A stretch of 64,000 nucleotides of DNA from Podospora anserina (GCA_017654855.1 CM030337.1:124001-188000), one strand, 5' to 3'. Positions 1,482 through 36,989 are shown, numbered from the stretch's first letter. A program made the numbers and translations. Notes: generated by a model from the letters alone, not told the origin.

Positions 1482-1847
1482 ATGCCCGCCTTTCGTCCAA
1501 CTCCCCGCCTGTCGGCCGCTGCCCTTCCCAATCCTTCTTCCCTCCCCAGAGCAGTTCCCAAGGGAGTAGCAGCCAATGTTGTTGTTCCAGGCATCGTGGT
1601 GGCGGCATCAGGTAGCTCCCATCTCGCATCATTTCCCTTCCGAACGCTCGCTGACCCGGTTGGTTTTATAGTATACGGCGTAATCAGCTACATCAAAAAC
1701 CAACTGCAACATGAGTCATCCACCATCGACAAGATGTTTGCCCAAAAGAACACCCCCGCTGTGGAAGAATCGAGACGGAGAAGTCTCTTGGTGGATACGG
1801 AAGGCGACCCGAGGAGAACGCCCTACAACATTCTGAACTGGAAATAG
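1482..1847 (+). CDS. Small (~101 aa) single-TM hypothetical protein, possibly mitochondrial
   Basis: ATG 1482; probable 60-nt intron 1612-1671 (GTAGCT..GCTGAC..TATAG) whose removal gives the hydrophobic run VVVPGIVVAASVYGVISYI; N-terminus is Arg/Ala/Pro-rich with no acidic residues. Confidence 0.65.
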   Translation: MPAFRPTPRLSAAALPNPSSLPRAVPKGVAANVVVPGIVVAASGSSHLASFPFRTLADPVGFIVYGVISYIKNQLQHESSTIDKMFAQKNTPAVEESRRRSLLVDTEGDPRRTPYNILNWK

Positions 1848-2728
1848 AGGATGCGAGATTGTTTTGCTTTTAGTGACTGGAAGTGGCGCTGGTTGAATTT
1901 AGTCGGCATAGGTAGCCTGTGGCATTTTGGGTTTTGTGCAAAGGGAAGGTGGCTCAAATAATATGAAGTTTCTACCTATGACTAGGTACTGTACAACACC
2001 AACACATGCATATCCGTACACTCCCTTTCAGTGACTCTAATCTCTGCCGCACCAGGCCCAGCCAAGATACCTCGCCCCGTCTCTCCAGATTCCTGCCAAT
2101 CTCACCAAACCTCAATGCCACCCAGATCGCCCAGATTTCTGGTTCTCGGCCGATACTCCAAGCGCAGGCTCGGATCAACCCCAAGACCAAAGCCCAGTGT
2201 TCTTGGCTTTGGGGCTGCAGCTCCCTCGGGTAGTCGCCAGTCATATCTCAGCAACAAGTGAACAAGCGCAATCTTGACTTCATTCCCCGCGAAAAAGCGC
2301 CCAGGACAGGCATGCTGCCCGTGTCCAAAGCCCATGTGCTCAGGGCTGGTGCTAACCAACTGCGCAACATGCTCGCTGCCTGGAACAGATCGCATCTTCA
2401 GAAACCGGTTGCCATCCCACGAGTCAGCTCCAGGATAAGCAGCTGGATCCCACATGCGCTCTGCTGACACGGCAATCGTGGCACCCTTGGGAATGTAGGT
2501 GCTGTCTGACAAGGTGAGGGGCGCTGTAGCCACACGACGCATCGAGACAAGGCCGATTGGCTTGATCCGCTGGCTCTCTTTGATCACGCTGTCCAAAAGC
2601 TTCATGTTGTAAAGCGAGTTCTTGTTCCAGCCACCCTCCCGAAGAGCCGACTCGATCTCTTCGCGCAGAGGGTCAATCATGTCAGGATGCTGGACCAAAT
2701 CGGCCAAAACCTGCACTGTCAGATCGGT

Positions 2729-3028
2729 CAAAAAAGATTAGTAAAAAGACAATGAATAGTAAAAGATTTCAAGTAAATAGTTATTTTATTATCAAGGCTG
2801 CGCTATCCTTTGGATAGTGAAACAGCTAAAGCTCTTTATTATACTTTATTTTTATATTAAATTATAGTTCCATGAGTAATAATCTTTTTGTAATCTTTAT
2901 AGAAAAAAAAAGATTAAAGTGGTATATCCCGACAGGGATATAGAATAGTCTTTATGATTATTTGGCAATGTTAGTGAAAACGATCAAAGAAGTTTAAACT
3001 TCAAGATCGTCGGTTATATAAATGATCG
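2729..3028 (+). other. NUMT-like insertion: fragment resembling a mitochondrial group I intron (IC2-like)
   Basis: 300-bp very AT-rich block with sharp edges, no TSD and no GT-AG ends. It has hairpins (CTATCC-TTT-GGATAG; TATATCCC-GACA-GGGATATA) and the motifs GGCAATGTTAGTGAAAACGAT and TCAAGATCGTCGGTTATATAAATGATCGCG, which I recall from fungal mitochondrial group I intron cores. Confidence 0.75.
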
Positions 3029-3528
3029 CGTGGTATGGATGGCTGCCATGCTCATAACAAGCTGCGCAATGACAGGATCATACGGTTTGCCTTGTGCCTC
3101 GCGCTCGAACCTATTGTTGTACACACCAGTTAGCTCTAATAAGCAAAAGATTTCTCACAGAGCAAAGACAATCGCAGAACGTACCATTCAATAGCATCGT
3201 CGTCAAAATTGCCGTTGCCGGCCATTTTTTGTACTCTTCTCTTTTCCAGAACAGGCCCAATGATCCGTCTTGCCTCCTGGACATGCACTCTTGCTTTTTG
3301 GCAAGACGGCATAAACCAGTGCGCCAGAAACCGCACAGGCTTGGGGACGAAACGTAACTCAATAGCCGCGCGCATAGCATCAGCTGTGTAGTCGCGTGTG
3401 ACCTTGAGCCAGTCTTCATTTCGGCAGAGCTCGCTGCCTAGAAACACGCGAGAGGAGATGCGTGCAATGAGGTGTAGGATTGTATCGCGAATCTCGACGG
3501 GCTGCCATGTTGCACTCGCCATCGTATG

Positions 3529-3887
3529 TGTCACACGGCAAATGCCAACCACCAACCACCAACAACCATGAACAACAACAGCGCCCAATATCACCTCAAG
3601 GAGGGGTAACTGCAAGTTGTGAGCCTCTCGTTCAAAGTGAGGCAGACAATCAGAGGCATGGCGGTTATCAAAGGAAGTTCAATGGCCCAGTAGGATATTG
3701 GAGGACTTGGCGGAGGCCTGAGGCCAACAAAGGCACGGGCCACGCGAGGGAGGATAAGATACGCGTTCAGGATCACCAAGACTGTATTTCTTCTTCTTTT
3801 CAGTATCACAGACTTCGAGGCCATTGAAGATTATTAGCCTGAATTGAACCATGAGTTCCAAGCCCTGATACCACAGCCCTTGTCACA
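3529..3887. mobile_element. Solo LTR of an LTR retrotransposon (359 bp)
   Basis: Begins TGTCACA and ends TGTCACA (TG...CA). Flanked by the perfect 5-bp duplication GTATG (3524-3528 and 3888-3892). Removal restores P450 frame LLPHT-MASATWQ. Confidence 0.92.
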
Positions 3888-5651
3888 GTATGGGGTAGTA
3901 GCTCATCAAGCGTGAGTCTCGTTTCTTCTGCCAGAGGCTCGGTCACCTTGTCTGAAGGTAACCACAAGTCAGTCCTTGCCACCCCAATACCAAACAAAAA
4001 ATCCGATACACTTACTCAGGTGCTTTGTCAGATCGCGCACTATGACTGCCTGCACAATCCTCGAATCCCTGGCACCCTCTCTGAAGCCTTCAAACCCCGG
4101 AAGGCTCGCGTGGAACGAGTTGTAAATAAACTCTCCAAAGCTCAGCCGGGGGTCGTTTTTGATTTCATTGGCCAGTCGGGCGGGCAAGATGATGACATCG
4201 CCCACATCTGCCGTGACCCGGACTGCCTTGTCGGGGTTGGTGTGGAACCACTGACGAATGATGGTGTAGGATGTGGTGAAGAACTCCTTGCGGATGCGAG
4301 TTTTGGTCAGCTCCGTCACAGGCTTGGGGTTGAGGTGAGGAAATCGGGATAGATGGCGATTTCGAAGTGTGTCTCGAAGGAGGAAAGCACCAGTGAAGAG
4401 GACAAACAAGTAAAGGTAGTAATGAGCGTCGAGAAAGTCAGTTGGTGAAACCATCATGGCCATAATTCAAGCTGCCAGAACAGCAGCCGATGGTGTTTTG
4501 GCAGATGGAAAGGATAAAGACCTAGAACTCGGGAAAAAGCAGTCGAGCTCTGTATGAAATATATATAGTCCTGTTGAGAAAAAGCACAAACACTTATGGT
4601 TCTGGTGGAGACATGCCAAGTCTTTGCACAACTCACATCGTGATCCGGGCACCCGAATGGAACAAGGCAGCCTCCTATTGCATGCGAACAATCATTGCTA
4701 CATTGATCTGTTCGCCTGCATCCCTTCCTCGACAAATCTCAACGTCCACGTTTCCTTGATCCTGGTATCGTCGTAATCTGTGGGTTACTCCGGGATTACC
4801 CGTCCAAAAGAACGGCAATCATTGGCCTAAGAGGGTTACTGGATCGCCAAAGTCGCATCTGCCGCACAAGCCAGGATTCTACCTCCACCACGGGATGAAC
4901 ATCTGCCGTAAACAGCGGGAGCTTGGATAACCCGTGCACAACTTGCACAACTTGCTCTGCATAAATCGAGGTGGCGACATGCTAAAAGCATGGAGTTCTC
5001 TCGGCTACGGATTTTTTTCAGAATCTAGATTCGTAATGAAGCCACAAAATGACCGTAAAGTGCACTTCATGGTCATTGAATCTCTTTCTGAGAACATTGC
5101 ATGCCAGCATCACTGTCACGGTTGAAGCAATGATGAGTGTCCTTAGTACCGTGGTATAGGTGATGAATCACAAAGTACCTAGATAAATACATATGGAACA
5201 AGTACACGCGTCAACTGTGTAAATAGGCAGTTCCTCTTCATTGTAGGGTATTGGTATAGAGACTAGATAGACAGGTAGATAGGCAGGTAGGTAGGTATTC
5301 CCAAGAGCAGCAATGCAATAGTAAAGTGTATATGCCCAGTCCTGTATCCTGCTCTGCCCAGTGAGCCCGTCGCCGGGCAAAGAAAGTCATGAGAGAGAAT
5401 CTAACAAAAAGGATGTATAAAAAACTAAACAGAAAAAAATAAAGACGCTTCATGTCACTATTGCTTGGTCTTTGAGAGCTATCAAGGACATTTGCAGGGA
5501 AACAAGAAAACGCCAAAGAAGAAAAGTCAATTTTGTTTCGCCAGATGCCCTCGTCCATCCTCAATATTGCCCCGGCCGCTAACAATTCTTTGCAGCGAAA
5601 CTCCACCACGGTATTGCCATCCGTCGCCCAACCGCTACTCTTGCTGACGAA

Positions 5652-7340
5652 TTACATTGCTCTCCTGAATCTCATCGCCTTTCTCTGTGGTCTTGTGTAC
5701 ACCGTGGGCGTGGTGTGTGCTGGCTCATGCTCCATGACTGGGGTCATGGTGTGTGCCGGTGCCGCTGCCGAGGTAGCTGCTGGTGGCGGGTGGACAACAA
5801 CAGGTGGGTGCACCACCGGGATCGGTGAGTGCACCGGAGGCATGATGACCACGGGGATTACACCGGGGTGCGCGGGTCCCGGTGCTGGCATGGGATGAGC
5901 CTCCTGGGCCGGAGGAGGGTGAGGAGCCGGTGAGGCGATGGGCGCCACGGTTTCCTGACCTGCGCACTCCGAAGGCGTCACTGTCACGTGGACGGTCTGG
6001 GTGGTGGTGACTGGATGAGCCGCCACGGGTTGGTTCACCGTGACATGAACCGTCCTGGTGGTGGTGACGGGATGAGCCGCCACAGGTTGAACGACGGTGA
6101 CATGCTGAACTTGAGTACTGGTGACGGTGTGCATGACGGTCTGGTGGTGGACAGACGTCTGAGTAACCACTCTATCCCTGACTTCTGTTCTGACTTGGGT
6201 CTCGACCCGGGTGACAGGGACCGTGACATGAACTGGCACAGTCTGGGTGACATGAACCGGAACGGTCTGGGTGACATGAACTGGGACAGTCTGGGTGACA
6301 ACATGGCTCTGGACAGCGGTGCTGGTCACGACTCTCTCGCTGACCTGCACTGAAGTGACCAGTCTCTCGCTGACCTGGGTGACAGGCACGCTGACAACCT
6401 TCTCCTTGACCTCTGTCCGGGTTACCAGCTGGGTGACAGGCACACTGACGGTGTGGGTGGCCACCTGGGTGACAACAGATGTGACCAGCCTCTGGCTCAC
6501 CTGCACTGTCGTCACCAGCCTCTCGCTGACCTTGGTGTGCGTAACTGGCACGCTAACAACCTGGGTAACGGCCCGAGTCTCGGTCCTTGTTACCGGAATA
6601 GTCACGCTCACTGTGTGGGTGCTTGTCACCGCTCTCGTCTCGGTTCTGGTGACCGGCACACTGACAACATGGGTGACGGGAACGCTGACAAGCTTCTCCT
6701 TGGTGACAGGAACACTGACAACCGAGGTATGGGTGACCAGCCTCTCGCTGATATGAACGCTGGTGACGGTAACAAGCCTCTCGCTGACCGCCGTCTTGGT
6801 AACCAACCTCTCGCTGACCTCGGTGCGTGTGACCGGAACCGTGACTGGCCTATCCTGCGTCGCTGTGACAAGCTTCTCCTTCGTTTCGGTGCGGGTGTGA
6901 ACCAGAGTGCTCGTGGCGGTGTGGGTGACGGCAACTGTCTGGGTGACATGGACGGGGACGGTCTGAGTTACGTGGACTGGAACCGACTGGGTGACATGAA
7001 CGGTCGAGGTCTCTCTTATGGTGGTGGGAACAGTGACGTGCGATACGAGTGTCGAGGTGTAAGTCGTCGTGTGGGTGACGGGTACCGTGACGTGAACTGT
7101 TGTCGGGACTGTGACATGTACTGGCACCGATACATGTACTGTCGTCGGGACGGTGACGTGGGTTACAGAGACGACGGTGCTTGTGTGAACGACTGGTACC
7201 GTGACATGAACAGTCTCTTTTACTGTTTGTGTGTGAACGACGGTCTCGGTGACCACTTCGGGGACTGCTGCGGGAGCCCCGGCGGCAGCGAGGGAGACCA
7301 GAAGGGCCAGAGCCACTGGCAGAGGGTTGAAGAAGCCCAT
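5652..7340 (-). CDS. Secreted Val/Thr/His-rich repetitive protein (~562 aa)
   Basis: ATG 7340, signal peptide MGFFNPLPVALALLVSLAAA, about 450 aa of repeats (VPVHVTQT, VSERLVT, VVSVPVT), Pro/His-rich segment, basic C-terminus; intronless ORF. Confidence 0.85.
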   Translation of the reverse strand: MGFFNPLPVALALLVSLAAAGAPAAVPEVVTETVVHTQTVKETVHVTVPVVHTSTVVSVTHVTVPTTVHVSVPVHVTVPTTVHVTVPVTHTTTYTSTLVSHVTVPTTIRETSTVHVTQSVPVHVTQTVPVHVTQTVAVTHTATSTLVHTRTETKEKLVTATQDRPVTVPVTRTEVSERLVTKTAVSERLVTVTSVHISERLVTHTSVVSVPVTKEKLVSVPVTHVVSVPVTRTETRAVTSTHTVSVTIPVTRTETRAVTQVVSVPVTHTKVSERLVTTVQVSQRLVTSVVTQVATHTVSVPVTQLVTRTEVKEKVVSVPVTQVSERLVTSVQVSERVVTSTAVQSHVVTQTVPVHVTQTVPVHVTQTVPVHVTVPVTRVETQVRTEVRDRVVTQTSVHHQTVMHTVTSTQVQHVTVVQPVAAHPVTTTRTVHVTVNQPVAAHPVTTTQTVHVTVTPSECAGQETVAPIASPAPHPPPAQEAHPMPAPGPAHPGVIPVVIMPPVHSPIPVVHPPVVVHPPPAATSAAAPAHTMTPVMEHEPAHTTPTVYTRPQRKAMRFRRAM

Positions 7341-9923
7341 CTTTGTCCTCCTTCCAATATCTGATGTCAAAAAAAACTTAAAAATATACACAAATGGTTG
7401 GTGTTATGCTCCCGATGATCCGGATCGTGATGATGCGATGAAAATGATGACGGTCGTTAGAAATAAAGTGAACGGCTTGCGCTCCGACAAAATGAAGCAG
7501 TTGAGTCTGTAAAAGAATATCAAGTAATAGTAAAATGGTCGATGAGTATCCTGCTCCGTTGGTGAATCGAAAAATAGTAAAAAGAATGACAACAACACCG
7601 CTTCACCACATGCAACAACGCTTGCACTGTGGATGAGGGGGACGGGCTTGGCGATGGTTGAAGAGGAAAGGAATAAAGAGAGGGAAAGGTCGAGGTCAAG
7701 GAGAGGAGGGTGGGAAGAGGGAAGAGGAGGGTGGGAAGAGGGAAGAGGACGGACGGGAAGGAAAGGAAACACCTGGTCGATCCGTGCAGCAGTGAGCCAG
7801 GAAATCCAAGTAGTTTTAATCCGGTGTGGTGATGTTTCCTCGCCCCGACTTGGCATCAGACCCCCGGTGCCCGGGGGCTTGGGAGGCAGCGATGCCACGA
7901 CCAAGCCAGGAAGAAGCCAGGAGGTGTCTGCAAGGGGGTGTGAAGCACCCAGCATCGAGATATGACCCCTGAGGCTTCTCAGAGATCCATGCCAAGATGT
8001 TGTAGTTTGTACACTAAGGTAGACTAGTCCAAGACAAACTTTTGCTTTTGTAGTCCAGAGTCAGCTGTTGATAACTGCTGGCTTGTGTTTACAATGAAAA
8101 GGAAGGGGGCTGCTTCTTGAGTCCTGATGGCGACGGGAGACCAGCATTGATCATGATATTGGGGATCGAGAGATGTAAAACTCGAACCATAGTTTGCCGG
8201 AGCGACATCATCGAGGCCTCTGTGTCGGGCCCATGCTTGCATTCCCGTCTTTGGTGGGTGCGGGACATGCCGTGATGTCAACGGTTGTCAAGAATTCGGA
8301 TTTTTTAGAGGGAGGTTCAAAGAAGAGCGGCCGCGGTCCCTCGCTTGGCCAAGCGGGGGGGGGCTGTTGACTCCCCCGCACTAAACCCCTTTTTGCCTTG
8401 TCTGTGCCCACAAGAGGTCTGACGTCGCAGCGGACGCAGGGGACGCGACATTGGAGGAGCCTGGAACCTCGACACTCCGGCTTCTTGTTTCAAGAATTTG
8501 TTTCCTTCTCTTTTACGACTCCGCTGCCCATTGCAGCCAAGTACTCGCTTTGCGCAATTTTGTTGCAAAAAAGGCTTGGACGGCTTGGGACGACAAGACG
8601 GACCTGGAACTGGGAGAGCAGCTTCTTTTCTCTTCCGGGCTCAGCCCTCACTGTCCCCGGTGTTGTTGTGGTGATCACGCACCCGTGGGGATCTTTCTGC
8701 GATCCTCAGATCATGAACAGACCTTGATAAGATGACGGTGGTAGTATTCGTTTATGTGCATCTTGCTTTTTGGCCTGTCAGCTAGGTACGCACCACTTGC
8801 AAAATATCTATGAGGTACCCTTCCCAAAGTTCCGCTCTCTCCAGTCCGCTCCATGTCCTGTCTCCAAATGAGAGGTCACAAACCCCTGGGACGAAGCACG
8901 CATTCATACACACACCCGATCGATGAGGTAATCTGTCATCCCAAAGTCCTATCGTGTACACAGATGCGATGAGAGTCTTTTTGAGGTCAGTGTGTAAGAG
9001 CCGGGGTTGACTGTTCTGATGGAGCTGTTTGAGACTCGGAGCTGTTGTGAACCGGGAGGCTGACCCCACCTTGAACCTCAACTTGCGTGCCGGACCCGAA
9101 GCGAACTCAACTCGACTAGCTAAGTACCAAGCTTGTTAGGTACCTACCTACGAATACACATCTTAACAGAGTGAAGTTATGTGATACTATTCCGTGCAAG
9201 TACCTACCTAGGTGCCTTTGATGCTTAGGTCGACGAACTCACTGTGAGCTCCAGCATGTGAATATTCAACACAACACCGTGGCTTCGTATCTTCAGAAAG
9301 CCAAGTCGAAGACACCCTGTTGGGGAGGCTCGCATGAACAGGGGTGCCAGTCTTGGCAGGAGTGGGACGCTGCATGCCGAGTCCTTCCAGAGCCCCTGAG
9401 AATCCAGCGTCAGTGCGAGTTTGGTTGTCTCAGCTCCCTGTCCCCCAAGAGCAAGCATAAAACACCCATGACTTAGCATGAAACAGTCGTCTGTTTTTCT
9501 GGGCAGGTGCAAGGCAGGGCAACGTTCAGCTTTAAACGTACTTATGCAGCTGCACGCTCCTACCATCTTCACGGTTTCTTGCTTCGTCATCTGTACTTCA
9601 GATGGTTGTCACGTACATACTATCCGTTCCAATTACATCAGTCCGTGGCTGCTTTAATGGGGACTTCCTGGCACAATCTCAAAGTGCCACCAGGTTATCC
9701 TCAAGAATCGAAGGTCTCTGGCTAGGCATCTTAGGCGCAATCATCATTACAGGAATCAGATTGGCCTCTGGTGTATATGCATGTCCAAGTCTCTTTTAAA
9801 GTTCATGTAGAGTTGGCATCAAAGAGCAATCAACGTAACAAACATTGAGAAAAGTCTATTTCTCTAATGGCCAAATACAGATTCAGTAGTTCCTCCAAGC
9901 CTCTTAACCCAGCATATCTGTCC

Positions 9924-35796: not shown

Positions 35797-35983
35797 AGAG
35801 CACTACTGGTTTTCTTTTATCCTGTTTTGGCCTTGTTCACGGGCTTTTGGTAAAACGTGTACATTTTTTGCATACTTTTCTTTTCCTTTTCTTTTCTTTT
35901 CTTTACACACTTTGATACCTTGATAGACATTTTGCATAGACAGACATTCACATAATTAATTTCAATACTGTTCCTGTTGACCA

Positions 35984-36989
35984 CTATGCCTTCATAGGTG
36001 CAAGCTCCCTCCCCACAAGCCTCTCTTGGCTATCCTCACCCGAGCTGTAGACATCATCTGGCACGGGGGGCGCAATGGAAGCGTCGCCCCTCTTGATTTC
36101 AATAATCGAAATGACGGGCAGCAGCAACATCAACATACCCAACAGCTGGCCGAAGCTCCACGTCTTTTCCCCCTCATCAGACAACAGGACATCTGGTGTG
36201 CCAAACGCTTGGGAGAGGAGGTAGGCCCGCGTGGTGGCCCCGAAAGCAATGCCTGCCATGGCAACAATGCCCATGGCTTGTACCACGCGAAAGGCGCGTG
36301 ACTTTTGCCTCCTGCTCTGAAGATACCAGGTGGCAAGCCCAAAGATCAGGCAGTTCAAGGCTACCACGACCACGGTAGCTACCACGTCCAGGCCGCCCAG
36401 TCTAGTCGTATCAGAAGGGCGAGTCCAAGCACATGCGATGGGCAGGGTATCCGGCAGATCCTTGATCTTGGCCTGCAGCAAAAAGACGCCGTACACGATG
36501 GAGAGGAGCAGGTTGAGGAACATTAAAAGCTGTCTCATCCATCTGAGCACCCAGTCTCTCTTGAAGTCGTTTACCAGAGACAACAGCGCGGCGTTGTGGG
36601 TGGCCATGGACAAAAGAGAGAGCATCCAGATGATGAAGAAGTGATACGGGGAAAGCTGCCACGACTTGACCAACCCGACAGACTGCAGGCCGATGCCCAC
36701 GAGAATCTGCTGATCAGAGTAGCCCGAGAGCAGCTTTCTTCGGACGATGGAGGGGTTCCGGATACACTTTCTTGGCCACCGAACATCCTGGAGAATGAGA
36801 CTTGCAGCCATGCCTATGACAAGGAAGGCGGTAATTGTGGATGATAGCAAGACCTGGGGCCCACATTTTGTTAGCTAACTTGATTCAGCCAGGTAGTTGG
36901 ACTCGACTTACACCAGCTCCCGCTACACCGGCATCGCTTGCAATGCTTTCTGGAATGACATTGCAACTTCTGCCTGCAAAAGCCGCCAT
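35984..36989 (-). CDS. Multi-pass membrane protein of unknown function
   Basis: Exon 1 MAAFAGRSCNVIPESIASDAGVAGAG, intron about 36855-36911, then SDQQILVGI and WSFGQ motifs with about 7 hydrophobic helices. Confidence 0.8.

What the first reader, a model, noticed from the sequence alone, without database searches (positions are those of the whole stretch)
2729..3028. Mitochondrial group I intron-like fragment inserted in a nuclear P450 I-helix, possibly starting at the intron's own 5' end
Seen: a 300-bp AT-rich, hairpin-rich block sits between the ACG and ACC codons of AAIHTT|TDL. No host bases are lost, there is no TSD, and it adds an in-frame TAA five codons in. Recalled knowledge: GGCAATGTTAGTGAAAACGAT and AAGATCGTCGGTTATATAAATGATCGCG match core elements of fungal mitochondrial group I (IC2-like) introns, normally continuing ...ACAGACT, so the right junction would have a CG microhomology. 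Inference: the left junction is GGT|CAAAAAAGATT. The host flank ends in T like a group I 5' exon, and GGTC-AAAAAA-GATT could form a P1-like hairpin. If the insert starts exactly at intron nucleotide 1, capture may have used intron RNA/cDNA or exon microhomology rather than a random mtDNA break. The fragment is antisense to the P450.
Basis: partly seen in the sequence, partly recalled or inferred. Interest (0 to 1): 0.8.

Follow-up and report, generated by a model that had tools for sequence, protein, structure and literature searches.

The report
Mitochondrial intron fragment breaking a P450
A 300-base piece of the fungus's own mitochondrial DNA, taken from the middle of a cytochrome b intron, has been pasted into a nuclear cytochrome P450 gene and broken it; this is an ordinary, recent mitochondrial-to-nuclear DNA transfer.

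Summary
Window 2729/2730-3028/3029 is a 300-bp, 26% GC block (window 53%). It splits the I-helix codons AAIHTT|TDL of a minus-strand P450 and puts a TAA five codons in. There is no target-site duplication.

It is a NUMT, a nuclear copy of mitochondrial DNA. In another run of the same organism, a 301-base unitig at about 15 times nuclear depth matches 2730-3030 with one difference. That unitig runs on into high-depth contigs of 4 and 35 kb.

Related metagenome contigs place the source in the group I intron at cytochrome b position 393. In Podospora anserina this is cob intron 2, which encodes a GIY-YIG homing endonuclease.

The idea that the fragment starts at intron base 1 is refuted. It begins 45 bases before the stop codon of the intron's endonuclease gene, about 860 bases into a 1320-base intron in the best proxy. 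It ends in J6/7, just before P7. It therefore carries P3(5')-P4-P5-P6 but no complete catalytic core.

Five sibling species and one assembled relative have the uninterrupted protein. All 14 listed DNA-type runs of this organism appear to carry the insert.

The same P450 also holds a 359-bp LTR-like insertion.

Ordinary end-joining capture of mtDNA is the best explanation. Interest is low.

The parts
2730..3030 (+). Stretch identical to the organism's mitochondrial DNA (a NUMT), 301 bases. Net insertion is 300 bases; G3030, or C3029-G3030, is shared with the host.
   Evidence: run X13 has a 301-base unitig covering 2730-3030 at depth 772 (nuclear flanks 46-48) with 1 difference (2880 T>C). It is continued by contigs of 3993 and 34832 bases at depth 677-679; all 148 BLAST matches of the window to 113 fungal mitochondrial-type loci lie within 2730-3030.
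2732..2776 (+). Last 14 codons plus the stop (TAA 2774-2776) of the intron-encoded GIY-YIG/NUMOD homing endonuclease gene. It includes a TGA read as Trp in the mitochondrial code.
   Evidence: (table 4 translation) matches the C-terminus of the L006 intron ORF. In Pfam the L006 ORF matches Cytochrome_B (exon 1, above its cut-off) and NUMOD1 (36.6 bits, cut-off 22.8). GIY-YIG at 21.9 bits is just below its 22.6 cut-off, and NUMOD3 at 16.8 is below its 20.4 cut-off.
2795..2835 (+). Lineage-specific hairpin just after the ORF stop, present only in the closest relatives (L006, L008, L031 type).
   Evidence: Alignment columns 112-170; paired in the fold.
2870..2963 (+). Conserved helices between the ORF and P3 (the P2-region): 2870-2873/2919-2922, 2881-2888/2908-2915, 2923-2930/2935-2942, 2943-2950/2956-2963.
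   Evidence: helices 1-5 are 97-100% paired across 57 sequences, and 12 of their 27 pairs show compensatory changes.
2971..2976 (+). 5' strand of P3. Its partner lies beyond the NUMT's end and is absent from the nucleus.
   Evidence: helix 6 (columns 336-341 with 426-431): 100% paired; pair 336:431 is UA in 48 sequences and CG in 9.
2980..3010 (+). P4 (2980-2985/3005-3010) enclosing P5 (2989-2993/2998-3002).
   Evidence: helices 7 and 8. P5 has 3 pairs with compensatory changes. P4 is invariant, partly because loci were selected with the 28-base probe. The same hairpins appear in the window's own fold.
3011..3028 (+). P6 hairpin (3011-3017/3022-3028). The following C3029-G3030 are the start of J6/7. 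P7, P3', P8 and P9 are missing.
   Evidence: helix 9. In the mitochondrial copies the next bases are ACA and then the P7 5' strand.
2105..2728 (-). P450 exon after the insert (TDLTVQ... through the FGHGQHACPGR heme motif to the C-terminus; stop at 2102-2104).
   Evidence: Pfam p450, E = 3e-33, profile positions 285-452.
3029..3109 (-). P450 exon before the insert (FEREAQGKPYDPVIAQLVMSMAAIHTT).
   Evidence: 27 of 27 residues identical to P0002 residues 285-311.
3181..3523 (-). P450 exon (MASATWQPVEIRD ... DDAIEW).
   Evidence: 95% identity to P0002 residues 168-285.
3529..3887 (-). Second insertion in the same P450: 359 bases, ends TG...CA, flanked by a 5-base direct repeat CATAC (3524-3528 and 3888-3892). 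Probably a solo LTR.
   Evidence: Relatives read ...ELLPHT|MASATW... without a break. The annotated partial protein of P. anserina S mat+ (P0122) reads into this element exactly as the window does.
3888..4463 (-). N-terminal P450 exons (MAMMVSPTDFL... to ...DELLPHT), with a short intron near 3953-4010.

Best explanation
The block is a recent NUMT, a nuclear copy of mitochondrial DNA. A roughly 300-base double-stranded fragment of the fungus's own mtDNA was ligated into a chromosomal double-strand break inside the I-helix codons of a nuclear P450. The break lay in host GGTC|GTGG. The joining looks like non-homologous end joining: blunt on one side, with 1 shared base on the other. The alternative parse is 1 filler base plus 2 shared bases.

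The fragment comes from the interior of the group I intron at position 393 of cytochrome b. In Podospora anserina this is cob intron 2, probably subgroup ID. It covers the last 14 codons and the stop of the intron's GIY-YIG endonuclease gene, the P2-region helices, and P3(5')-P4-P5-P6. It stops in J6/7 before P7.

It has neither splice site, no complete ribozyme core and no complete gene, so it is inert. Its only effect is to cut the P450 with an in-frame stop.

Shown here: the mitochondrial identity, the position within the intron, the group I fold of the source, the presence of the insert in several runs of the organism, and its absence from relatives at protein level. Inferred: the end-joining mechanism and a DNA rather than RNA intermediate.
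For: 1. Mitochondrial origin. Run X13 holds a 301-base unitig over 2730-3030 at depth 772 against 46-48 for the nuclear flanks, with 1 difference. It is joined to contigs of 3993 and 34832 bases at depth 677-679. A TGA=Trp codon sits in the ORF tail.

2. Source locus. In L006 (93% identical over insert bases 2-300) the homologous stretch lies between cob exon 1 (...VTGFLG) and exon 2 (YVLPYGQMSLWG). It overlaps the last 47 bases, stop included, of an in-frame ORF that scores above the Pfam cut-off for NUMOD1 and just below it for GIY-YIG. Of 114 probe matches in 113 metagenome loci, 91 have the exon 2 motif 169-199 bases downstream. Yin et al. (PMC3492308, tables read) list P. anserina cob intron Pa2 at codon 131, phase 0, with a GIY-YIG ORF.

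3. Group I fold of the source. On 57 sequences less than 97% alike, 77 pairs in 13 helices, including the P3/P7 pseudoknot, are 98.6% paired, against 35-45% when slid by 1-3 columns. 21 pairs show compensatory changes, and 0 of 500 shuffles reach this. In L006, U precedes the 5' splice site; G ends the intron in 57 of 57 sequences.

4. Real insertion, not an assembly artefact. Eleven of the 14 listed organism-A runs hold at least 0.99 of the sampled words. By my own arithmetic, an empty site plus mtDNA would give at most about 0.91. In X13, nuclear-depth unitigs run from each flank 30 bases into the insert; an X2 contig of 2312 bases spans the whole stretch. A Logan protein that starts just after the insert is seen on 16 contigs.

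5. Recent origin. Identity to mtDNA is 300 of 301. Five sibling species (518-519 aa) and one Logan relative (P0131) have AAIHTTTDL uninterrupted.

6. The junction pattern fits NUMT capture by end joining as reviewed in PMC2820518 (passages read).
Against: - Rfam's group I model RF00028 does not hit the window (E up to 10) or the homologous intron in L006 (E up to 1). At gathering thresholds it also gave no hit on the homologous stretch in five other related loci, although it does find other introns nearby.
- The organism's own mitochondrial genome was not available. Position within the intron therefore rests on a 93%-identical metagenome proxy, 30 bases of flank on each side from X13, and a published table.
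- The X13 flank unitigs extend only 30 bases into the insert. This is one short of the tool's own criterion of 31 for bridging.
- X2 may be the source of the window, so it is not independent.
- Absence in sibling species is seen only at protein level. No sibling DNA could be read, so the exact pre-insertion sequence and the 1-base boundary choice are inferred.
- Because the fragment is purely intronic, it cannot by itself distinguish a DNA from an RNA intermediate.
Confidence: 0.93

Rival explanations
1. Splice-site-precise capture, the first reader's idea: the insert starts at intron nucleotide 1 and was captured through excised intron RNA, cDNA or exon microhomology.
For: The host flank ends in T. 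The fragment is intronic and in one piece. The excised or precursor RNA of this intron type turns up in RNA libraries: metatranscriptome contigs in X15 and X17 cover 2730-3030, although the tool warns that DNA can be present in such libraries.
Against: Base 2730 is 45 bases before the stop codon of the intron ORF, about 860 bases into the intron in L006. The mitochondrial base before it is G, not U, and the mitochondrial copy continues upstream as the same ORF (loose ends against L006). The 3' end also falls inside the core, in J6/7, about 144 bases before the 3' splice site. There is no poly(A) and no exon sequence.
Confidence: 0.02
2. Assembly chimaera: mitochondrial reads were mis-joined into a nuclear contig.
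For: The source is at about 15 times nuclear depth, and a 300-base identical repeat can confuse assemblers. The one contig that spans the whole stretch (X2) may come from the same data as the window.
Against: Runs from at least three other studies (P2, P3, P4) hold 0.93-0.99 of the words, including levels that require junction words. X13 shows nuclear-depth unitigs entering the insert from both sides. The insert is exactly 300 bases with no host base lost. It carries a private T at 2880 where every mitochondrial-type contig laid across that position has C. Independently annotated and assembled proteins of this species are cut at this point.
Confidence: 0.02
3. Active ectopic insertion of the intron into the nuclear gene by its own homing endonuclease or by reverse splicing.
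For: The source intron encodes a homing endonuclease. Group I introns can reverse-splice into RNA (established knowledge, recalled).
Against: Both intron ends are missing and the ORF is reduced to 14 codons. The host site shows no resemblance by eye to the cob-393 exon junction seen in L006. The fragment is antisense to the P450, so reverse splicing into its mRNA is excluded.
Confidence: 0.01
4. A degraded (RIP-mutated) transposon or MITE that is AT-rich by decay.
For: AT-rich, hairpin-rich, and sits beside another insertion in the same gene.
Against: Identity to high-depth mitochondrial sequence is 300 of 301. There is no other copy in the window, no terminal repeats and no target-site duplication.
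Confidence: 0.01

Closest known systems
NUMTs (nuclear copies of mitochondrial DNA) captured at double-strand breaks by non-homologous end joining
   Same: A short mtDNA fragment sits in nuclear DNA with 0-2 bases of junction microhomology, no target-site duplication and no host deletion. It is near-identical to the current mtDNA and is lineage-specific. The review PMC2820518 (passages read) describes exactly this pattern. Its table lists 3 numts totalling 0.455 kb for P. anserina.
   Different: It lies in a coding exon, in the catalytic I-helix, and destroys the gene. The source is purely intronic. I could not check whether this copy is one of the three counted in 2010, because supplements are closed.
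The group I intron at cytochrome b position 393 (cob_393; 'Pa2' of P. anserina, homologous to Neurospora crassa cob intron 1 according to PMC3492308)
   Same: The fragment matches this intron's ORF tail and its P2-P6 region. The source sits after codon 131 in phase 0 and carries a GIY-YIG-type ORF in frame with exon 1 (PMC3492308 tables).
   Different: The nuclear copy is only about a quarter of the intron. It lacks P1, P7, P3', P8, P9, both splice sites and nearly all of the ORF, so it cannot splice or move.
Group I subgroup ID (GI-D1/GI-D3) introns of Pezizomycotina (Cinget and Belanger 2020, PMC7595605)
   Same: That survey found a strong bias of GI-D introns to cob position 393: 60 GI-D1 and 13 GI-D3 among 216. 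It also reports GIY-YIG genes in GI-D introns in general. The weak performance of the general Rfam model on this intron would fit a rare subgroup.
   Different: Subgroup membership was not tested here, because no ID-specific model is on hand.

Membership tests
NUMT | Nuclear sequence on both sides | tested here: met
   P450 exons abut both ends in frame. The flanks are at nuclear depth, 46-48, in X13.
NUMT | Near-identity to the same organism's mitochondrial DNA | tested here: met
   300 of 301 bases match a unitig at depth 772 that is linked to contigs of 4 and 35 kb at depth about 678. The flanks of that copy are cob-intron sequence. The named mtDNA record itself could not be searched.
NUMT | Junctions supported by data independent of the assembly | tested here: inconclusive
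   Word shares of at least 0.99 in 11 of 14 runs imply junction words. X13 unitigs enter the insert by 30 bases, one short of the tool's bridging criterion. The only full-span contig (X2) may be the window's source. No raw or long reads were available.
NUMT | Empty site in relatives | tested here: met
   Tested at protein level only. Five sibling species and the Logan protein P0131 have AAIHTTTDL uninterrupted. The insert has no GT..AG ends that would let a gene caller splice out exactly 300 bases (read).
Group I intron (the mitochondrial source) | Lies between two exons of a gene at a recognised insertion site | tested here: met
   In L006 it lies between cob exon 1 (...GFLG) and exon 2 (YVLPYGQ...), that is nucleotide 393. 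91 of 114 probe matches have exon 2 at 169-199 bases downstream.
Group I intron (the mitochondrial source) | Conserved core P3-P9 with the P3/P7 pseudoknot, supported by covariation | tested here: met
   98.6% paired, 21 of 77 pairs compensatory, 0 of 500 shuffles as high, slid controls 35-45%. P3 and P8 covary. P4, P6 and P7 do not vary, and for P4' and P6 this is partly because the probe selected them.
Group I intron (the mitochondrial source) | U before the 5' splice site and G as the last intron base | tested here: met
   In L006 exon 1 ends ...GGT. The intron ends in G in 57 of 57 aligned sequences (column 611). The P1 pairing (exon UGGGU with GCCCA at intron bases 11-15) was read by eye in L006 only.
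Group I intron (the mitochondrial source) | Match to the curated family model (Rfam RF00028) | tested here: not met
   No hit on the window (E up to 10) or on the homologous intron in L006 (E up to 1). At gathering thresholds there was also no hit on the homologous stretch in L112, L008, L065, L031 or L103. The model did find other introns in the same loci.
Group I intron (the mitochondrial source) | Self-splicing or protein-assisted splicing | not testable with these tools
   Needs an in vitro splicing assay or RNA reads across the cob exon junction.
Functional group I intron or ribozyme (the nuclear copy itself) | Complete core and both splice sites | tested here: not met
   The copy ends in J6/7. 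P7, P3', P8 and P9 are absent, and so are the 5' roughly 860 bases with P1.
Splice-site-precise capture | The left end equals intron nucleotide 1 | tested here: not met
   The left end is 45 bases before the intron ORF's stop. The preceding mitochondrial base is G.
   No subgroup models are available. PMC7595605 (passages) assigns cob_393 introns to ID.
Solo LTR (the second insertion, 3529-3887) | TG...CA termini and a 4-6 base target-site duplication | tested here: met
   the ends are TG and CA, with CATAC on both sides.
Solo LTR (the second insertion, 3529-3887) | Similarity to the LTR of a known retrotransposon | not tested
   There is no other copy in the window, and no fungal repeat library is on hand.

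The most novel reading that the evidence does not exclude
The fragment might be a trace of the mtDNA fragmentation and amplification that Podospora undergoes during senescence, or of an intron-RNA/cDNA intermediate, reaching the germ line. If so, intron-rich regions of its mtDNA would be preferred donors of nuclear insertions, and this locus, hit by both a NUMT and an LTR element, would be a break-prone site. The data do not exclude this, because a purely intronic fragment says nothing about a DNA versus RNA origin. They give no positive sign of it either.
Probability: 0.05. Interest if true: 0.5.

Novelty: new member of a known kind. Interest (0 to 1): 0.2.

Why it matters
The finding matters mainly for annotation and as a marker.

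- It explains why this P450 is annotated only as fragments in the reference strain, while five sibling species have a full-length gene.
- It gives a clean, datable, lineage-specific presence/absence marker within the Podospora anserina species complex.
- It is a well-resolved example of a NUMT that knocks out a gene, with both junctions readable to the base.
- It warns that mitochondrial intron cores in nuclear DNA should not be read as intron mobility. Here both ends fall at arbitrary internal positions.
- It has no wider mechanistic consequence unless an RNA-mediated or senescence-linked origin is shown.

Tried and rejected
- **Own genome search.** No genome is held for this window, so the organism's mtDNA could not be searched directly.
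- **Rfam on the window and on related loci.** No group I hit on this intron. Only chance-level hits appeared (a CRISPR repeat at E = 0.14, a snoRNA at E = 4.1), which I discard. I replaced this test with a covariation test.
- **Viral contig scan with the 28-base probe.** 0 matches.
- **Spliceosomal intron reading.** The minus-strand ends are CG..TG or GC..TT, not GT..AG. The only plausible branch-site/acceptor combination would delete I-helix codons (read).
- **Another mitochondrial piece in the window.** Rejected: all 148 matches to the 113 loci fall in 2730-3030. The second AT-rich stretch, 35826-36001, is a T-rich simple region.
- **Organism-A runs guessed to be RNA (X21-X24).** Nothing can be said about expression of the P450 or the insert.
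- **Metatranscriptome cover in X15 and X17.** It shows only that near-identical intron sequence occurs in soil and biocrust RNA libraries. I draw no conclusion about transcription or habitat.
- **Literature.** A search for 'Podospora' with 'NUMT' found 8 papers, none describing this locus. A search for the locus tag found 0 papers. The genome paper's main text has no 'numt' or 'P450'. Supplements are closed, so the list behind the three numts counted in PMC2820518 could not be seen.

Full report
**What is in the window**

Bases 2701-3026 are the most AT-rich stretch of the 64-kb window. The 300-base block is 26.3% GC against 53.4% overall, and nothing else in the window resembles it.

On the minus strand, 3029-3130 ends ...VMSMAAIHTT and 2728 downward begins TDLTVQVLADL.... 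The frame then runs through the FGHGQHACPGR heme-binding motif to a stop at 2102-2104. Pfam calls this piece p450 at E = 3e-33. Reading on from TT into the block gives RSFI and then TAA. No direct repeat flanks the block. The block is strongly structured, with a fold z-score of -4.98 against 200 shuffles.

**Whose gene is it**

A search with the C-terminal piece returned 801 proteins at E <= 0.001 among 3930 candidates. The best is a 518-aa P450 of Podospora bellae-mahoneyi at 97% identity.

Its 90% cluster has 17 members, of which 15 were listed. They include full-length 518-519 aa proteins from five sibling species: P. bellae-mahoneyi, P. pseudocomata, P. pseudopauciseta, P. pseudoanserina and P. 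comata. For P. anserina S mat+ there is only a 'partial' 198-aa protein.

That partial protein is identical to the window's N-terminal exons. It also reads into a second insertion exactly as the window does. The window is therefore P. anserina or something indistinguishable from it.

In every full-length relative I examined, the I-helix is unbroken: AAIHTTTDL, or AIHTTSDL in Neurospora. A Logan-assembled relative, P0131, differs from the window's reading at three residues and also has the unbroken site. A Logan protein identical to the window's reading begins just after the block and was seen on 16 contigs.

**Where the block comes from**

Fourteen runs of the same organism hold 0.93-1.00 of the 70 sampled words, and 11 of them hold at least 0.99. 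Six soil-type metatranscriptomes hold 0.19-0.31.

I laid four runs:
- **X2** may be the window's own source. One 2312-base contig spans 2579-3178 without a difference.
- **X13** comes from another study. The nuclear flanks are at depth 46-48. A 301-base unitig covering exactly 2730-3030 is at depth 772. It is continued on both sides by contigs of 3993 and 34832 bases at depth 677-679. This is what multi-copy mtDNA looks like. The unitig differs from the window at one base: 2880 is T in the window and C in the mitochondrial copy. C also stands at 2880 in X15's full-length contig and in one of the two X17 contigs that cover the position.
- **X13 flank unitigs** at nuclear depth run from each flank 30 bases into the block. 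This is what a k=31 graph gives at a real junction, although it is one base short of the tool's own bridging criterion.

Before 2730 it has G preceded by A-rich sequence.

**Which mitochondrial locus**

A scan of metagenome contigs with the 28 bases 3003-3030 gave 113 loci; viral contigs gave none. All 113 align to the block. L006 and L112 are 93% identical over bases 2-300. L008 and L065 are 98.4-98.8% identical over bases 45-300.

L006 has the following layout:
- cob exon 1 is 131 codons and ends ...VTGFLG.
- Exon 1 runs in frame into an ORF that matches NUMOD1 above the Pfam cut-off. GIY-YIG (21.9 bits against a cut-off of 22.6) and NUMOD3 fall just below theirs.
- The ORF stops at 2674-2676.
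- The block's homologue is 2630-2946.
- Exon 2 (YVLPYGQMSLWG...) starts at 3091.
- The intron is therefore 1771-3090, 1320 bases, inserted after nucleotide 393.

Translated with the mitochondrial code, window 2732-2776 gives KRLVKRQWIVKDFK and a stop. This is identical to the end of the L006 ORF, and the X13 upstream flank continues the same frame.

Of the 114 probe matches, 91 have the exon 2 motif 169-199 bases downstream, 8 have it further away, and 15 have none within reach.

Two papers agree with this placement:
- Yin et al. (PMC3492308, tables and passages read) list three cob introns in P. anserina. The second, Pa2, lies at codon 131 in phase 0, carries a GIY-YIG ORF, and is homologous to Neurospora cob intron 1.
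- Cinget and Belanger (PMC7595605, passages read) class cob_393 introns as subgroup ID.

**Is the source a group I intron**

Rfam's general model does not see it, so I tested the fold directly.

Of 88 usable copies, 74 were distinct and 58 were less than 97% alike. I aligned 57 of these; I left out L024, which has a long extra 3' segment.

RNAalifold recovered P4, P5, P6, P7, P8 and two 3' helices. I added P3 as a pseudoknot. The counts on the full structure are:
- 77 pairs in 13 helices, 98.6% of cells paired, against 35-45% when partners are slid by 1-3 columns.
- 21 pairs with changes on both sides; 0 of 500 shuffles reach any of the five measures.
- P3 covaries (UA in 48 sequences, CG in 9), as does P8 (UA in 31, GC in 26).
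- P5 covaries at 3 pairs, and the four P2-region helices at 12 pairs.
- P4, P6 and P7 never vary and so say nothing either way. For P4' and P6 this is partly my own selection by the probe.

The intron follows a U in L006 and ends in G in 57 of 57 sequences. By eye, in L006, exon UGGGU can pair with GCCCA at intron bases 11-15 to form P1.

**What the nuclear copy contains**

In window coordinates:
- ORF tail: 2730-2776.
- A lineage-specific hairpin: about 2795-2835.
- P2-region helices: 2870-2963.
- P3 5' strand: 2971-2976.
- P4: 2980-2985 with 3005-3010.
- P5: 2989-2993 with 2998-3002.
- P6: 3011-3028.
- The first two bases of J6/7.

P7, P3', P8, P9 and the whole 5' part of about 860 bases with P1 are absent. 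The copy cannot fold into a ribozyme and encodes nothing.

Neither end coincides with an intron end. This refutes the splice-site-precise idea and gives no support to an RNA or cDNA route. Homing or reverse splicing is also out: the ends are internal, the copy is antisense to the P450, and the host site does not resemble the cob-393 junction.

**Junctions**

With relatives reading ACC-ACG-ACC-GAT across the site, the simplest parse is a break in host GGTC|GTGG. The left join is blunt, 300 mitochondrial bases (2730-3029) are inserted, and one base (G3030) is shared on the right. The alternative is one filler C on the left and CG shared on the right.

Both parses are ordinary for end-joining capture of mtDNA, as reviewed in PMC2820518 (passages read). 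That review also tabulates 3 numts totalling 0.455 kb for P. anserina. I could not check whether this one is among them, because supplements are closed.

**Age and spread**

With 300 of 301 bases still identical to mtDNA, and with the sibling species intact at this site, the insertion postdates the split of P. anserina from its closest listed relatives.

Word shares of at least 0.99 cannot be reached without junction words. By my own arithmetic on 31-base words, an empty site plus mtDNA would give about 0.91 or less. At least 11 of the 14 listed runs therefore carry the insert, and so does X13 at 0.93, which I laid. The listing favours holders, so a rare empty allele is not excluded.

**Second hit in the same gene**

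Between ...DELLPHT and MASATWQP..., which are contiguous in relatives, the window has 359 extra bases (3529-3887). They have TG...CA ends and a 5-base direct repeat CATAC on both sides. This is the signature of a solo LTR, although no other copy or known element was available to confirm it.

Apart from the two insertions, the exons are open and 95-100% identical to the sibling protein, apart from one short 26-residue match that runs into the second insertion. Both hits therefore look recent. Their order is unknown.

**Verdict**

This is a real, recent, gene-disrupting NUMT derived from the interior of the cob-393 group I intron.

Noticed in passing
window 3524-3892 (minus strand): A second insertion in the same P450: 359 bases (3529-3887) with TG...CA ends and a 5-base target duplication CATAC, between codons ...LLPHT and MASATW.... 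It is probably a solo LTR. The reference strain's annotated partial protein reads into it.
   Followed up: partly
window 5652-7403 (minus strand): A 583-codon open frame made of repetitive Thr/Val/His-rich units (VPVTHT, VSERLVT and similar), next to the broken P450. It may be a repetitive secreted or wall protein.
   Followed up: no
L006 3091-5321; also L103 and L036: In several metagenome relatives, cob exon 2 is cut again right after ...SLWGATV by a further intron, followed by an in-frame LAGLIDADG-type ORF after ...IPWIGQDIVE. Rfam's group I model hits those downstream introns but not the cob-393 one.
   Followed up: partly
L008 1-1904 and L065 1-827: The two metagenome copies closest to the window in the core (98.4-98.8%) lose similarity exactly at the ORF stop (insert base 45). 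No cob exon 1 motif was found in the sequence held upstream of the core (1904 bases in L008, 827 in L065). Their 5' intron part must differ, perhaps through a different or larger ORF module.
   Followed up: no
runs X15 and X17, laid on window 2730-3030: Biocrust and soil metatranscriptome contigs carry this intron stretch with 3-10 differences and the same mitochondrial flanks. Other X17 contigs carry diverged variants with replaced hairpins. The intron family seems common in soil fungi.
   Followed up: no
window 2880: The single difference from mtDNA is C to T in a CpA context. That is the dinucleotide favoured by RIP, but one change in a single-copy 300-base piece allows no inference.
   Followed up: no
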